Part shown: positions 10,020-60,483 of the stretch, piece by piece
Numbering within the stretch: the first letter of the stretch is position 1
How the letters are laid out: every line of letters begins with the position of its first letter
DNA from: a virus
Taxonomy: Duplodnaviria > Caudoviricetes
DNA: 64,000 nt
IMG/VR virus record: IMGVR_UViG_3300023283_000076
Coordinates: 64,001 to 128,000 of that record
Direction: 5' to 3' (one strand)
Notes under the pieces: model-generated
Seen by the model: the letters and a program-made list of their open reading frames with translations, nothing else
Databases searched by the model: none
What the model was told of the DNA's origin: nothing
Program-made: the position numbers and the translations under genes

Positions 10020-10103
10020 GGGTAAGTCTGGTACGGGTGAACCAAGCTGACTGTACATCAGTGTCCTCTGGACTTGGACGTTCGAGTCTCTCCCTACCCA
10101 CCA
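10020..10103 (+). pseudogene. degenerate second tRNA-Tyr(GTA)
   Basis: GCTGA-CTGTACA-TCAGT arm and CCA present; T-stem GGACG/CTCTC mostly unpaired, acceptor mismatch. Confidence 0.65.
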
Positions 10104-10280
10104 ATTGTTTTTATAAATAATGTTGCTTATATATTGAATATATGTTATCATAAATATAATAATGAATAATAGGTATCAATATAAAGCTAACTATTCTAAT
10201 AGAGTTTTACGATGGTTAAGAAATACTCCACGTAAAGAAATCTATGAATGGATTGAAGAGCAGAAGCGTAAGAAATATAA

Positions 10281-10406
10281 GGGTGTGTAGCTCAGCGGTT
10301 TAGAGCGTCCGACTGTGGAAGTTGTGGGATACGTAGATCAGGTTCAACTCCTGAAACTTCAAAGGTAATCGGATGGTCGTAGGTTCAAATCCTACCACGC
10401 CCTCCA
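10281..10406 (+). tRNA. tRNA interrupted in the anticodon loop by a 49-nt insert (Asn GTT or Thr GGT after removal)
   Basis: perfect D-arm GCTC/GAGC, TCCGA/TCGGA anticodon stem, GTAGG-TTCAAAT-CCTAC T-arm, GGGTGTG/CACGCCC-TCCA; extra sequence 10317-10365. Confidence 0.85.
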
Positions 10407-10410
10407 ATTT

Positions 10411-10701
10411 TTGACCCCCCTTCATGTTTTAGTTTGCCATACCTATAAAATCGAGAATAGTAATGTTAGTAAACAAACCTTAAAATCTAGATATTTGAAA
10501 CACAGGGAAACTCTTGACATTACTTTCGAATGTGATATAATAGACTGTAAAATATCAAAATGGTATGGTAAAAAATTGAATCTTCAATTAGATCATATCA
10601 ATGGTATAAATAATGATAACAGGTTGAAAAATTTAAGATTACTTTGTCCTAATTGCCATAGTCTAACGGAGACATTTGCAGGGCGAAAGAAATTACAATA
10701 G
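10411..10701 (+). CDS. HNH endonuclease (probably N-terminally truncated)
   Basis: LQLDHINGINNDNRLKNLRLLCPNCHS; internal TTGACA..TATAAT promoter near 10514-10541. Confidence 0.75.
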   Translation: MTPLHVLVCHTYKIENSNVSKQTLKSRYLKHRETLDITFECDIIDCKISKWYGKKLNLQLDHINGINNDNRLKNLRLLCPNCHSLTETFAGRKKLQ

Positions 10702-10770
10702 GTACGAGCATAGATTGCCGACCAGATTTGGAATCTGGGAGAGAGATTTCGATTATCTTCGCACCCGCCA
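10700..10770 (+). pseudogene. atypical tRNA-like gene, anticodon TGG, minimal D-arm
   Basis: CCAGA-TTTGGAA-TCTGG, GAGAT-TTCGATT-ATCTT, GCCA end; D-arm only GCA-TAGAT-TGC; two acceptor mismatches. Confidence 0.6.
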
Positions 10771-10786
10771 AATTAAAAATGTAATA

Positions 10787-48304: not shown

Positions 48305-48694
48305 TAATTTAATTATATAATTTAATTATAGATCACCTATTGATCTATTTGAACCATTTTATATGTTTGAATACAATATGTCAACCTTGTTTTAAGTAGA
48401 TATTACAGTAATTCTATTTCCTACAAATCCACTAAATTTTTCTGCTGCTTGTATAGCAGTCCTAACTATATTCTCTCCATTTGAAACATCAATAGATTTA
48501 GTTGACATATGTTCAGATGCAACATGTAATGCACCAAGTGCGAATGACTGGCCACAACCAACACATGCAAAGGGCTCCTCAAATTCCATGACAGAGAAAT
48601 CATGTGATATGGTAAAAATATTATTTTCAAATGCTACAATGAACTCCCCGCCCGAAATTTCAGAAGCATCAGACTTTTTTATATACAAGTGATC

Positions 48695-50008
48695 TTGACA
48701 ACTCCCCTCGCTAAAGCAAGGGGATTCTTGTTTCACAGTCCTGTGCATTGCTCCATACAGGAGATTCAGTCTTATTTTGGACTCCACAAGCTAACTCCGT
48801 GTGCCCCACGGTTAAAATATTTTTAGCTGCATTAATATCTCGGTCATGTTCAACATGACACGATTCACAGCTAAATTTACGGACTGAAAGAGGCATTTTT
48901 GAATGCAAATGTCCACAACTGGAGCATGTTTTGGAACTAGGATACCATCGATTGACTTGATGGAATGTTCTGCCATACCATTCAGATTTATATTTCAGCA
49001 TGTCTACGAATGTTGACCATGCTGCATCTGAAATGGCTTTGCTCAATTTGCGGTTTTGAATCATGTTTTTAACAGCTAAGTCTTCTAATATGATCACTTG
49101 GTTCTCGTTGACAATATTAGAAGACAGTTTATGCAGAAAATCTTTCCTGCAATCAGCTATTTTAGCATGGACTCGTGCCACTTTCAGTTTTTGTTTCTTG
49201 AAGTTTTCACTTCCTTTTTGTTTCTTGCTTAAACGTCTTTGTTCAATTTTTAATTTCTGTGCATATTTTCTGGTGTTTCTCAGATTAGCAATCTTGTTTC
49301 CATTTGAATCAATCAGAAAATGTGTCAACCCAAGATCAATTCCAATCTTGTTTTGATTGACAGGTTTCAATTTCATGTCCTTCTCACCCTGAATAGAGAC
49401 GAAATATCTGTCAGCACTATCTTTTGAAACTGTGATTGAATTAATTTTTGACAAATCTAAGTCTCTTGACCATTTTATTTCTAATGGTTCTTTAGACTTT
49501 GCGATGTATAGCTTTCCGTCTTTAAAACGGAATCCACTATTGGTTAATCGAAATGATTGCTTTTTATGTCTATTTTTAAATTTTGGATATTTGGCTCTTC
49601 CCTTAAAGAAGTTAGAAAATGCAGTATCTAGATTGCGTAGTCCTTGTTGTAATGCCACATTACTTACATCATACAACCAGTCCAGTTCTTTTTTTAGCTC
49701 TGTGAGTTTTGCGCTCGTTTGATTATAATTAATTGAATTGTTATTTTGGTAATACTCATTGTGTCGGTATTCCAAAATATTGTTGTAGACAAATCGCACA
49801 CAGCCAAATGTCCGAGCGAGAAGTGTTTTCTGCTCATTGGTCGGATACACTCTATATTTGTATGCGATTTGTTGATTCAATTAATTGTTGCATATTTTTG
49901 TATTATACATCTATTTAGTAAATTTGACAAGTAGTAAATACTTTTGTCATATTATATTCTTTTAGAGTTTAACCCCTCCCTTAAGGAAGGGGTCTGTTTG
50001 TTTGGTTG
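48695..50008 (-). mobile_element. IS200/IS605-family element, TnpB only (IS1341-like)
   Basis: TTGAT target before left end CAAC; hairpins CCCCTTCC-TTAA-GGGAGGGG and CCCCTTGC-TTTA-GCGAGGGG; right end TCAA. Confidence 0.88.
48711..49880 (-). CDS. tnpB: TnpB RNA-guided endonuclease
   Basis: AYKYRVYP HTH, IGIDLGL, ILEDL, SKTCSSCG..CESC, DRDINAAKNI. Confidence 0.95.
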   Translation of the reverse strand: MNQQIAYKYRVYPTNEQKTLLARTFGCVRFVYNNILEYRHNEYYQNNNSINYNQTSAKLTELKKELDWLYDVSNVALQQGLRNLDTAFSNFFKGRAKYPKFKNRHKKQSFRLTNSGFRFKDGKLYIAKSKEPLEIKWSRDLDLSKINSITVSKDSADRYFVSIQGEKDMKLKPVNQNKIGIDLGLTHFLIDSNGNKIANLRNTRKYAQKLKIEQRRLSKKQKGSENFKKQKLKVARVHAKIADCRKDFLHKLSSNIVNENQVIILEDLAVKNMIQNRKLSKAISDAAWSTFVDMLKYKSEWYGRTFHQVNRWYPSSKTCSSCGHLHSKMPLSVRKFSCESCHVEHDRDINAAKNILTVGHTELACGVQNKTESPVWSNAQDCETRIPLL

Positions 50009-60320: not shown

Positions 60321-60396
60321 TTGACTTTCCCCTTCATTAATGAAGGGGATTTCTAATTCATCGAAACTTACATTGTTTTTGATAAATGGGAGGGGA

Positions 60397-60468
60397 TGCC
60401 GTTGAAAGGATTCGAGCCTTTAACTTTTTCCTATCAAGGAACTGCTCTGCCAATTGAGCTACAACGGC
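60397..60468 (-). pseudogene. degenerate tRNA-Ile(GAT)
   Basis: GCCGTTG/CAACGGC acceptor and D-arm intact; 6-nt anticodon loop TTGATA, T-loop CTCGAAT, no CCA. Confidence 0.7.
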
Positions 60469-60483
60469 AATTTATATTATTTA

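What the first reader, a model, noticed from the sequence alone, without database searches (positions are those of the whole stretch)
10281..10406. tRNA with a mini-tRNA-shaped insert inside its anticodon loop
Seen: an otherwise intact cloverleaf with 49 extra nt (10317-10365) in the anticodon loop. The insert folds as GAAGTT/AACTTC stacked on a canonical T-arm TCAGG-TTCAACT-CCTGA, with a 14-nt GG-containing loop in place of the D and anticodon arms, i.e. an acceptor-plus-T-arm minihelix. Removal gives CT-GTT-AA (Asn); a shifted junction gives CT-GGT-AA (Thr). It is far too short for a group I intron and shows no obvious bulge-helix-bulge. Inference: a new intron type excised by tRNA-maturation nucleases (RNase P/Z) and religated, a masked anticodon that avoids anticodon nucleases, or a tRNA-elbow decoy.
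Basis: partly seen in the sequence, partly recalled or inferred. Interest (0 to 1): 0.85.

Follow-up and report, generated by a model that had tools for sequence, protein, structure and literature searches.

The report
tRNA-shaped mini-intron splitting a phage anticodon
A giant phage's asparagine tRNA gene is split in the middle of its anticodon by a 49-base insert folded like a miniature tRNA; it belongs to a widespread phage family of such inserts, too small to splice themselves, in viruses of bacteria that have no known tRNA-splicing enzymes.

Summary
Window 10281-10406 is an intact tRNA-Asn(GUU) cloverleaf (Rfam tRNA, 58.8 bits) with 49 extra bases at 10317-10365, between anticodon bases 35 and 36.

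It is not a one-off or a mis-assembly. I found about 23 distinct relatives in phage and metagenome contigs, in tRNA-Asn(GUU), tRNA-Lys(UUU) and one tRNA-Tyr(GUA), all at 35/36. Two are unannotated genes of the cultured Agrobacterium jumbo phage Atu_ph07.

All share one design:
- one unpaired purine, then a 4-7 bp stem;
- a joiner;
- a 4-6 bp hairpin with a T-loop-like 7-base loop, stacked on the stem's return strand;
- a 5-base tail.

The stems covary strongly. The 1-base and 5-base overhangs are constant in 23 of 23 while the tail sequence varies.

None of five large carrier genomes searched has RtcB or EndA; the insert has no Rfam match. An Rnl1-type RNA ligase is present in 6 of 7 carrier genomes. 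Homing endonuclease genes often lie alongside; here an HNH-like ORF starts 5 bases downstream.

Best reading: a mobile, protein-spliced intron whose tRNA mimicry sets the cut sites, possibly RNase P plus a 3'-end nuclease, then ligase. No RNA data exist, so splicing is inferred.

The closest published relatives are the "enigmatic" Lak megaphage tRNA introns. This scan has noted similar inserts on other DNA.

The parts
10281..10316 (+). 5' exon of tRNA-Asn(GUU): acceptor 5' strand, D arm, anticodon stem 5' strand and loop bases C32 U33 G34 U35
   Evidence: Rfam tRNA alignment; ARAGORN with introns; sequence
10317..10365 (+). 49-nt insert (intron) between anticodon bases 35 and 36
   Evidence: covariance model R1 scores 71.3 bits at genome 74308-74373; clean indel against intron-less alleles
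10317..10317 (+). N1: unpaired G opposite the first tail A (a 'G1-A72'-like mismatch). G in 19 of 20 aligned members, A in Atu_ph07
   Evidence: alignment A1
10318..10323 (+). P1 5' strand GAAGTT (acceptor-like stem)
   Evidence: all 6 pairs covary
10324..10337 (+). 14-nt joiner containing GGG (D-loop-like). In relatives it is 9-20 nt, often AAAGGTAAAT or a small hairpin
10338..10354 (+). P2 hairpin TCAGG-TTCAACT-CCTGA. The closing G-C, loop U1, C3 and A5 are invariant or nearly so, which is the T-loop signature
10355..10360 (+). P1 3' strand AACTTC, directly stacked on P2
10361..10365 (+). 5-nt tail AAAGG. The length is constant in 23 of 23 members; the sequence varies after A-A
10366..10406 (+). 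3' exon: U36 A37 A38, anticodon stem 3' strand, variable loop, T arm, acceptor 3' strand, U73 and encoded CCA
10411..10701 (+). 96-aa ORF with an HNH motif (LDHINGxNNDNRxxNLRLLCPNCH), a free-standing homing-endonuclease-like gene 5 nt downstream of the tRNA. It is absent from the intron-less arm
   Evidence: Pfam HNH_3 21.3 bits and HNH 21.0 bits, both just under their cut-offs; alignment of the two arms
10700..10767 (+). decayed tRNA-like remnant after the HNH ORF. Its 3' strand CGCACCC complements the 5' acceptor strand of the intron-bearing gene. Possibly the displaced 3' part of an older tRNA
   Evidence: Rfam tRNA 21.7 bits, E 0.01, below the gathering score; weak similarity only

Best explanation
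The 49 nt are a genuine intron of a conserved, mobile, non-self-splicing family that sits between bases 35 and 36 of phage tRNA anticodons (Asn GUU, Lys UUU, Tyr GUA).

Shown:
- The insert and its fold: a purine, stem P1, a joiner, a T-arm-like hairpin P2 stacked on the P1 return strand, and a 5-nt tail.
- The family, the covariation and the fixed distances of both junctions from P1.
- Intact exons throughout the family.

Inferred:
- The precursor is cut at both junctions and the exons are rejoined to give a working tRNA-Asn.
- The cut sites are measured from the intron's miniature-tRNA shape.

The most likely route is as follows. Host RNase P cuts 5' of N1 (U35|G1), as it does at position +1 of any tRNA. 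A tRNA 3'-end endonuclease of the RNase Z/BN type, or an equivalent, cuts after the fourth base beyond 'position 72'. This leaves 3'-OH and 5'-P ends at a nick in the anticodon loop, which is the known substrate of the T4 Rnl1-type ligase these phages encode.

At the DNA level the insert probably spreads, or protects its gene, together with neighbouring free-standing homing endonucleases. Here that would be the HNH-like ORF at 10411-10701.

My odds: the family and its fold are real, 0.97; it is spliced to a functional tRNA, about 0.7; the RNase P / 3'-nuclease / ligase route specifically, about 0.3.
For: 1. Intact tRNA with one loop insertion.
2. About 23 distinct members with the same junctions CTNT|...|NAA.
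3. P1, P2 and the anticodon stem covary: 94.3% paired against 62.9% shuffled, covariation score 0.83 against 0.20, slid controls at most 47%. RNAalifold agrees.
4. T-loop signature: closing G-C, loop C3 and A5 invariant, loop U1 in at least 90%.
5. Ruler: a 1-nt 5' overhang and a 5-nt tail in 23 of 23 members, with tail sequences AAAAG, AAAGG, AAGCT, AAACC, AACAG, GAAAG, AAGAA and AAGAT. The T-loop-to-tail strand is 10-11 nt plus the A mismatch, about the 12 layers of a tRNA acceptor/T stack.
6. U at -1 in all members and G at +1 in 19 of 20 match known RNase P preferences. That preference is established knowledge, not tested here.
7. Exons of 13 members score 38-60 bits on Rfam tRNA despite the insert.
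8. The intron-bearing gene is the only Asn(GUU) gene in complete genomes G002, G003 and G004. For Atu_ph07 the published annotation found no Asn tRNA (PMC6102473) and the gene is unannotated in GenBank. G001 also has an intron-less copy.
9. Near-identical intron-less alleles show a clean 50-nt indel.
10. RtcB and EndA are absent from G000-G004, the five genomes searched. The insert has no Rfam family. It is far below group I size.
11. Rnl1-type ligase is present in 6 of 7 genomes with a 35/36 insert and in 0 of 4 smaller phages with intron-less Asn. Rnl2-family hits are present in 5 of 5.
12. HNH or GIY-YIG genes lie within about 1 kb in roughly 10 of 15 loci, and immediately adjacent in the window, L020, L043 and L045.
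13. None was found in 185,579 cellular genomes with the strict pattern.
Against: - No RNA evidence of any kind. No RNA run holds the locus. The one metatranscriptome hit for a relative was another organism's tRNA.
- No nuclease is known to cut precisely four bases beyond a discriminator without a CCA. The tail is not CCA-like.
- A T-loop is a common RNA building block, so the resemblance need not mean recognition by RNase P or Z.
G002 has no Rnl1 match.
- In this genome the Rnl1-like gene lies in the other arm of a contig that may be a chimera of two phages.
- The Lak-phage introns have about 26-30 nt between the 5' junction and their tRNA-like part, so RNase P alone cannot explain those.
- Most Asn members were found with a pattern that fixed the GG start and the CAAARG end, so conservation of those letters is partly imposed. 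The exon-only scan and the model hits are the unbiased part.
- This window's tRNA has U73, whereas G73 is the usual Asn discriminator.
Confidence: 0.4

Rival explanations
1. It is a spliced intron, but a dedicated and still unknown endonuclease (phage- or host-encoded) cuts it by reading the three-way junction of anticodon stem, loop and P1. The ends are then healed and sealed (kinase/phosphatase plus Rnl1, or Rnl2). The tRNA-like shape serves folding or stability, or another partner such as the CCA-adding enzyme, TruB or the ribosome.
For: The same family, covariation and exon evidence applies. Both junctions are also at fixed distances from the anticodon stem (4 nt and 3 nt), so the ruler could be read from the tRNA body. 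RNAalifold adds two pairs, C32-G(-1) and U33-A(-2), in 17-18 of 20 members. These create a 3-nt bulge UAA at the 3' site. Ligases are present.
Against: No candidate nuclease was identified. EndA and RtcB are absent. The two extra pairs do not covary and are missing in two Lys members. The central helix is 2 bp, not the 4 bp of a bulge-helix-bulge.
Confidence: 0.2
2. The RNA is not spliced. The interrupted tRNA acts as it is, for example as a decoy or sponge for host anticodon nucleases that attack Lys(UUU) and Asn(GUU) tRNAs, or as a stored precursor with a masked anticodon.
For: The tRNAs that carry the insert (Lys UUU, Asn GUU) are among the targets of the PARIS nuclease AriB, which reads U36-A-A-U-C next to the insertion point. 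Phage T5 counters PARIS with its own Lys, Thr and Asn tRNAs (PMC12409363). The insert splits the anticodon itself.
Against: AriB cuts at 40/41 in the stem, not at 35/36. Removing the insert always restores an exact 7-nt loop with a sense anticodon in all 23 members, which a decoy does not need. The gene is the only Asn tRNA in phages that carry near-complete tRNA sets. One member is in tRNA-Tyr.
Confidence: 0.12
3. It is selfish DNA only. The short structured cassette is spread by homing endonucleases or recombination and simply inactivates the tRNA gene. The copy in this window is a mosaic pseudogene made when the HNH cassette invaded.
For: The window locus is a mosaic. Homology with the other arm stops 27 nt into the tRNA. 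The HNH-like ORF and a decayed tRNA remnant follow. Endonuclease genes are frequent neighbours. Hosts supply tRNA-Asn anyway.
Against: The exons stay perfect cloverleaves with compensatory changes across very divergent members. The insert's own helices are under selection. Dead genes would not keep an exact 7-nt loop on removal in 23 of 23.
Confidence: 0.1
4. RNA-catalysed removal: a very small self-splicing or self-cleaving element, or one processed by a trans-acting phage RNA.
For: The 5' exon ends in U and most Asn-type inserts end in G, as in group I introns. These phages encode several large structured RNAs of unknown function, according to unverified notes from this scan.
Against: At 44-50 nt, apart from one 71-nt member, it is several-fold too small for a group I core. 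No ribozyme family matches at E up to 10. The terminal G is not conserved in the Lys and Tyr members.
Confidence: 0.05
5. Assembly artefact: two tRNA fragments joined by mistake.
For: The contig itself looks like a join of two related phages.
Against: An exact 600-nt contig spans the tRNA and the HNH ORF in two runs. The same design is found in about 23 independent sequences, including a finished isolate genome.
Confidence: 0.01

Closest known systems
'Enigmatic' introns in Lak megaphage tRNAs (Devoto et al. 2019, Nat Microbiol, PMC6784885; Table S6 read)
   Same: They are short, non-group-I inserts in the anticodon loops of huge-phage tRNAs. Each contains an acceptor-like stem plus a T-arm with a TTCGAAT-type loop, and one was called 'a possible tRNA'. 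They have no Rfam match, no known mechanism, and are strongly conserved between cohorts.
   Different: Lak inserts are 79-114 nt. They sit after base 36 (36/37 by my reading of the published sequences) in Tyr, Phe, Thr and Gly tRNAs. They start with an extra hairpin and an A/T linker of about 26-30 nt before the tRNA-like part, and they end 2-3 nt after the stem. The present family is 41-71 nt, sits at 35/36 in NUU and GUA anticodons, and has fixed 1-nt and 5-nt overhangs.
Group I introns in bacterial, plastid and phage genes, including tRNA anticodon loops (tRNA-Leu UAA, fMet, Arg CCU, Ile CAU; review PMC3984707)
   Same: They occupy the anticodon loop of a tRNA gene. They are mobile and often associated with homing endonucleases. 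The 5' exon ends in U and many inserts end in G.
   Different: Group I ribozymes need roughly 200 nt or more with a P3-P9 core. This insert is 49 nt, has no Rfam Intron_gpI match, and its terminal G is not conserved across the family.
Archaeal and eukaryal protein-spliced tRNA introns (bulge-helix-bulge, EndA/TSEN plus RtcB or Trl1; review PMC4090602)
   Same: They are short, protein-dependent, have structure-defined cut sites, and occur in or near the anticodon loop.
   Different: Here there is no 3-4-3 bulge-helix-bulge, the usual position is 37/38, and no EndA or RtcB is found in five carrier genomes. The known hosts are bacteria (Agrobacterium for Atu_ph07).
Collaborative homing of an ORF-less intron with a neighbouring free-standing HNH endonuclease (T7-like phage PhiI; Bonocora and Shub 2009). 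Recalled from memory, not read here
   Same: An ORF-less insert in a conserved gene has a free-standing endonuclease gene right beside it. The insert would disrupt the enzyme's target site.
   Different: That case is a self-splicing group I intron in a protein gene. Here neither cleavage specificity nor mobility was tested, and several family members have no endonuclease nearby.
T4 tRNA repair: Rnl1 with Pnkp reseals tRNA-Lys nicked in the anticodon loop by PrrC (reviews PMC3400036 and PMC3014915 listed, not read; the pathway is stated from established knowledge)
   Same: The proposed last step is the same reaction: sealing a nick in an anticodon loop held together by the tRNA body, by an Rnl1-family ligase that the phage encodes.
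   Different: In T4 the break is host-inflicted damage at 33/34. Here it would be a programmed step of gene expression at 35/36.

Membership tests
tRNA (Rfam RF00005), isotype Asn(GUU) | Full cloverleaf scoring above the gathering threshold | tested here: met
   58.8 bits against a gathering score of 29, model positions 1-71, with a single loop insertion
tRNA (Rfam RF00005), isotype Asn(GUU) | 7-nt anticodon loop CU-GUU-AA after removal of the insert, and orthology to intron-less Asn genes | tested here: met
   There is a unique junction CTGT|TAA. Intron-less genes have the same anticodon stem. L009 against L020 shows a clean indel
tRNA (Rfam RF00005), isotype Asn(GUU) | G73 discriminator, the E. 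coli Asn identity element (established knowledge) | tested here: not met
   The window gene has U73. Several relatives have G73
Group I intron | Catalytic core P3-P9, about 200 nt or more, matching Rfam Intron_gpI | tested here: not met
   The insert is 49 nt and has no Rfam match at E up to 10
Group I intron | U at the end of the 5' exon and a conserved terminal G | tested here: inconclusive
   U35 is always present. The terminal G is present in Asn members, but the search pattern imposed it there, and it is absent in several Lys and Tyr members
Bulge-helix-bulge (EndA-type) tRNA intron | Two 3-nt bulges separated by a 4-bp helix at the junctions | tested here: not met
   The consensus fold gives a 3-nt bulge, a 2-bp helix and a 3x3 internal loop
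Bulge-helix-bulge (EndA-type) tRNA intron | Splicing endonuclease and RtcB or Trl1 ligase available | tested here: not met
   PF01974 was found in 0 of 5 genomes and PF01139 in 0 of 5. The hosts' genomes were not examined
Lak-type phage tRNA introns (Devoto 2019) | Short insert in the anticodon loop of a huge-phage tRNA with an internal acceptor-plus-T-arm element and no Rfam class | tested here: met
   Searches compared
Lak-type phage tRNA introns (Devoto 2019) | Same position and architecture (36/37; 5' hairpin plus linker before the tRNA-like part) | tested here: not met
   Here the insert is at 35/36, has no 5' hairpin, and P1 begins 1 nt after the junction
tRNA-like minihelix / RNase P model substrate | T-loop motif: closing G-C, U1...A5, C3 | tested here: met
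   The closing G-C, C3 and A5 are invariant, and U1 is present in at least 90% of 20 sequences
tRNA-like minihelix / RNase P model substrate | About 12 stacked base-pair layers from the cut site to the T-loop, with U at -1 and G at +1 | tested here: met
   Typically P1 of 6 bp plus P2 of 5 bp directly stacked, plus the N1-A mismatch. U at -1 in all members and G at +1 in 19 of 20
tRNA-like minihelix / RNase P model substrate | Actual cleavage by RNase P; a 3' RCCA tail | not testable with these tools
   No biochemical or RNA data are available. The tail is A-A-N-N-N, not RCCA
Homing-endonuclease-associated mobile intron | Presence/absence polymorphism at the same site in related genes | tested here: met
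   Filled and empty alleles: L020 against L009; the window form against the alternative form in runs X1-X4; OLIVR5-type empty against Atu_ph07 filled
Homing-endonuclease-associated mobile intron | An endonuclease that cleaves the intron-less target | not testable with these tools
   HNH or GIY-YIG ORFs are adjacent in many loci, but none is near in Atu_ph07 or L038. Specificity is unknown

The most novel reading that the evidence does not exclude
This is a third kind of tRNA intron, the first protein-spliced one in the bacterial world. A miniature tRNA is embedded in the anticodon, so that the cell's ordinary tRNA end-processing enzymes (RNase P at its 5' end, an RNase Z/BN-like cut at its 3' end) excise it. 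A phage RNA-repair ligase (Rnl1) then joins the exons. This would give RNA 'repair' ligases a programmed role in phage gene expression. It would also give homing endonucleases a ribozyme-free vehicle.
Probability: 0.3. Interest if true: 0.95.

Novelty: new variant of a known kind. Interest (0 to 1): 0.8.

Why it matters
Bacteria and their viruses are thought to have only self-splicing introns in tRNA genes. Here a large, conserved family of inserts far too small to be ribozymes sits inside the anticodon of otherwise perfect phage tRNAs. In several complete genomes it interrupts the only gene for that tRNA.

If these inserts are spliced, a protein-based tRNA splicing pathway exists in bacterial cells. 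The insert's exact tRNA-like geometry points to a testable route: RNase P, a 3'-end nuclease and an Rnl1 ligase.

Practical consequences:
- tRNA sets of jumbo phages are under-annotated. Atu_ph07 was reported to lack tRNA-Asn.
- T4-type RNA ligases, whose natural roles beyond repair are unclear, gain a possible function.
- The family is present in a cultured phage-host pair (Atu_ph07 on Agrobacterium tumefaciens C58), so the question can be settled at the bench.

Tried and rejected
- Exact 25-mer of the insert in IMG/VR: no hit.
- Megablast of the region against GenBank phages: only tRNA-Pro matches.
- Rfam on the insert alone and on the region at E up to 10: nothing but tRNA.
- Single-sequence folding of the insert: not significant (z -1.15), and the minimum-energy fold differs from the conserved fold.
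- Thr(GGU) and His(GUG) readings of the junction: rejected, because intron-less orthologues read CTGTTAA. ARAGORN miscalls one relative as His.
- Scan of cellular genomes: the single hit was an ordinary tRNA-His. Two metagenome hits were likewise false.
- RNA evidence: no RNA run for the window. One metatranscriptome for a relative held only another organism's tRNA-Asn.
- RtcB and EndA: absent.
- Remnant of a phage attachment-site duplication: rejected, because the insert has its own covarying 5' strand and recurs at one site in many phages.
- Similarity of the downstream tRNA remnant to the other arm's Asn gene: weak, so the history of the locus stays tentative.
- Literature searches for this family: only the Lak-phage report.
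Full report
**1. What is in the window**

Bases 10281-10406 (+) read as a complete tRNA. The acceptor stem is GGGTGTG/CACGCCC, the D arm GCTC/GAGC, the anticodon stem TCCGA/TCGGA and the T arm GTAGG-TTCAAAT-CCTAC, followed by U73 and an encoded CCA. The anticodon loop has 56 nt instead of 7.

- Rfam's tRNA model aligns end to end at 58.8 bits (E 1.7e-12) with one 52-nt insertion in the loop.
The default run gives a spurious tRNA-Leu at 10311-10406, because it mistakes the insert's hairpin for an anticodon arm.
- Only one junction restores a 7-nt loop that matches intron-less relatives: CTGT | 49 nt | TAA. The insert therefore occupies 10317-10365 and splits the anticodon G34 U35 | U36.

**2. 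Context**

The window is bases 64001-128000 of a 270,653-bp IMG/VR virus record. CheckV rates it 79% complete, and it has about 33-36% G+C and 48 tRNA genes.

- Nearby genes are typical jumbo-phage cargo: a HerA-like ATPase, GMP reductase, an ArdC-like protein and TnpB.
- The first 46.5 kb of the contig mirror 51.8-102.7 kb at 68-93% identity.
- In the other arm the homologous place holds an intron-less, rather divergent tRNA-Asn directly next to tRNA-Cys.
- In the window arm, homology stops 27 nt into the tRNA. The rest of the tRNA follows with its insert, then a 96-aa ORF with an HNH motif (10411-10701), then a decayed tRNA-like remnant (10700-10767), and only then tRNA-Cys.

**3. Not an assembly artefact**

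In two public runs a 600-nt contig covers 10216-10815 without a single difference.

The same runs, and two more, also hold a form that skips 10292-10786 with 64 other letters in between. This is the intron-less arrangement.

The two forms differ in depth: about 6 against 20 in one run, and the second form alone in two runs. The two arms of the contig are therefore probably two related phages joined by the assembler. This does not affect the locus itself. It does matter for which genes belong to the intron-bearing phage.

**4. A family, not a singleton**

Pattern scans gave these results:

- A scan with the exons and a free gap found a second case in IMG/VR. L020 has the same anticodon stem and a 50-nt insert at the same place with a different sequence.
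- The intron-less version of the same anticodon arm occurs in 14 contigs as ordinary tRNA-Asn; the other three of the 17 pattern matches are one non-tRNA sequence.
- L009 and L020 carry nearly identical genes that differ by a clean 50-nt indel at CTGT^TAA.
- Scans with looser exons found many more in viral and metagenome contigs.
- The same strict pattern found only an ordinary tRNA-His among one genome for each of 185,579 bacterial and archaeal species.

Neighbouring genes and a covariance model (R1) added further members:

- tRNA-Lys(UUU) members and one tRNA-Tyr(GUA) member with a 71-nt insert;
- two genes in the finished genome of the cultured Agrobacterium phage Atu_ph07: Asn at MF403008.1 323910-324019 and Lys(UUU) near 68189-68253. 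Both lie where GenBank annotates nothing.

[quoted passage not shown] The Asn gene was missed because of the insert.

Altogether there are about 23 distinct sequences. In every one the junction is after U35: CTGT|..|TAA, CTTT|..|TAA or CTGT|..|AAA.

**5. Anatomy and covariation**

Every member has the same parts in the same order:

| Part | Description |
|---|---|
| N1 | one purine: G, or A in Atu_ph07 |
| P1 | stem of 4-7 bp |
| Joiner | 9-20 nt, often AAAGGTAAAT or a small hairpin, usually containing GG |
| P2 | hairpin of 4-6 bp closed by an invariant G-C, with a 7-nt loop U-(U/G)-C-R-A-N-Y |
| P1 return strand | directly stacked on P2 |
| Tail | 5 nt |

On a 20-sequence alignment (A1):

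- 94.3% of cells form standard pairs, against 62.9% in shuffles (0 of 500 shuffles as high).
- 14 of 16 pairs show changes on both sides.
- The covariation score is 0.83 against 0.20.
- Sliding the partner columns drops pairing to 25-47%.
- RNAalifold predicts the same helices without my input.

The loop invariants (C3, A5 and the closing G-C; U1 in at least 90%) are the T-loop signature.

This holds even though single-sequence folding prefers another inner pairing and is not significant on its own.

**6. A ruler**

The tail sequence varies: AAAAG, AAAGG, AAGCT, AAACC, AACAG, GAAAG, AAGAA, AAGAT. Its length is 5 in 23 of 23 members, and the 5' overhang is 1 in 23 of 23.

Count the N1-A mismatch as a seventh layer. 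P1 plus P2 then gives about 12 stacked layers, as in a tRNA's acceptor/T-arm stack. The excised RNA would start at 'position 1' and end four bases past 'position 72', which are the proportions of a mature tRNA minihelix.

The base before the 5' junction is always U, and the first intron base is G in 19 of 20. Those are the preferred -1 and +1 bases of bacterial RNase P (established knowledge, not tested here).

**7. Are the exons functional?**

- Exons of 13 members score 38-60 bits on the tRNA model despite the insert.
- Their anticodon stems covary with 100% pairing.
- I fetched four complete relatives piecewise and scanned them whole. The interrupted gene is the only Asn(GUU) gene in G002, G003 and G004.
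- G004 has both its only Lys gene and its only Asn gene interrupted.
- G001 also has an intron-less Asn copy.
- For Atu_ph07 the published annotation found no Asn tRNA, so its interrupted gene is probably its only one.

This argues that the genes are used, and hence that the insert is removed. That is an inference. No RNA data exist.

**8. What could remove it?**

| Candidate | Result |
|---|---|
| Self-splicing | 49 nt, no ribozyme family match |
| EndA | none in five large carrier genomes |
| RtcB | none in five large carrier genomes |
| Rnl1-type ligase | present in G000, G001, G003, G004, G005 and Atu_ph07; absent in G002 and in four smaller phages with intron-less Asn |
| Rnl2-family | hits in 5 of 5 |

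The ligase correlation is weak because genome size and lineage confound it. In G000 the Rnl1 gene sits in the other arm.

A coherent route would run as follows. RNase P cuts at U35|N1. A tRNA 3'-end endonuclease cuts after the tail. Both leave 3'-OH and 5'-P, so the nicked anticodon loop, held together by the tRNA body, is exactly what Rnl1 seals in T4's repair of PrrC-cut tRNA-Lys.

The weak point is the 3' cut. A precise cut four bases beyond the discriminator without a CCA is not an established activity. I recall a Thermotoga RNase Z that cuts after CCA, but that is memory and not a test.

**9. DNA-level behaviour**

Free-standing HNH or GIY-YIG (Seg-like) genes lie within about 1 kb in roughly 10 of 15 loci. 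They are immediately adjacent in the window, L020, L043 and L045. Atu_ph07 and L038 have none nearby.

Co-resident intron-less Asn genes differ at the insertion site. This fits an insert that breaks an endonuclease target and travels with it, as in collaborative homing. However, such genes are common in phage tRNA clusters, so this remains suggestive.

**10. Comparison with what is known**

The only published parallel I found is the Lak megaphage report of "enigmatic" tRNA introns, one of which "may encode a tRNA" (PMC6784885).

Reading their Table S6, all four Lak introns contain an acceptor-like stem plus a T arm. They differ in three ways. They are longer (79-114 nt). They sit after base 36. 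They carry a 5' hairpin and linker, so RNase P alone could not make their 5' junction.

The present family differs in position, size and its exact ruler, and I found no paper describing it.

Notes from this scan describe similar tRNA-shaped inserts in phage tRNA-Asn on other DNA, some carrying an endonuclease gene inside. Those are unverified leads, not evidence.

The carriers Lys(UUU) and Asn(GUU) are also the tRNAs attacked by the PARIS nuclease AriB (PMC12409363). This keeps a defence-related reading alive, although AriB cuts at 40/41.

**11. Verdict**

- The insert is a member of a widespread phage family of tRNA-shaped mini-introns at anticodon position 35/36.
- Splicing is likely but unproven.
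- The RNase P / 3'-nuclease / Rnl1 route is the best mechanistic guess, at about 0.3.
- A cultured phage-host pair makes all of this testable.

Noticed in passing
whole contig G000: 1-46,558 against 51,775-102,686 (window 1-38,686 is part of the second arm): Large inverted duplication at 68-93% identity, with a hinge of about 63-bp tandem repeats at 49.6-50.5 kb. In public runs the two arm forms have different depths, and two runs hold only the arm-1-like form. The contig is probably two related phages joined head to head, or else a real diverged inverted repeat.
   Followed up: partly
window 10700-10767 (+): Decayed tRNA (Rfam 21.7 bits, E 0.01; UGG anticodon arm, no D arm) directly after the HNH-like ORF. 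Its 3' strand CGCACCC complements the 5' acceptor strand of the intron-bearing tRNA. It may be the displaced 3' part of the tRNA that was there before the cassette arrived.
   Followed up: partly
window 10162-10290 (+): A 42-codon ORF that ends inside the first bases of the tRNA is conserved in both arms. It has no Pfam match, and whether it is a gene is unknown.
   Followed up: no
window 10020-10105 (+): This stretch aligns with the other arm's second tRNA-Tyr(gta) (genome 29228-29314, minus strand), but ARAGORN does not call it as a tRNA in the window.
   Followed up: no
window 60394-60469 (-); also L020 10665-10739: tRNAs with a 6-nt anticodon loop (TTGATA and CTGAAA). ARAGORN reports a two-base anticodon '(ga)'. 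Rfam scores the window copy 58.2 bits. The same oddity appears in two unrelated phage contigs.
   Followed up: no
L040 9306-9421 (genome G005, 313,597 bp): This tRNA-Asn has a different insert at the same 35/36 site: 41 nt, a plain 7-bp hairpin with an 18-nt loop, no GG start and no T-loop. Model R1 does not match it. The site seems to attract more than one kind of insert.
   Followed up: partly
MF403008.1 (Atu_ph07) 323910-324019 (-) and about 68160-68285 (-); loci L062 and L063: Two intron-bearing tRNA genes, Asn(GUU) and Lys(UUU), lie in stretches without annotation. [quoted passage not shown]
   Followed up: yes
L026 1952-2090 (genome G002 48668-48806): A class II-shaped tRNA (long variable arm) carries a family member at 35/36 and would read CTGTTAA (Asn anticodon) after removal. 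This combination of body and anticodon is unusual.
   Followed up: no
L028 3300-3374, L031 1815-1891, L020 9588-9747, G001 474-550: Intron-less tRNA-Asn genes that share a genome with an interrupted one differ around the insertion site (GATTGTTAATC, GATTGTTACTC, GGCTGTTAACC). This is as expected if they escape a site-specific endonuclease.
   Followed up: no
L023 7848-8242; L029 7082-7363 and 8981-9108: Phage-encoded permuted tmRNA genes in two carrier contigs, and a skipping-rope RNA in L029.
   Followed up: no
window 48711-49880 (-): TnpB / IS605 OrfB-type gene inside the phage genome.
   Followed up: no
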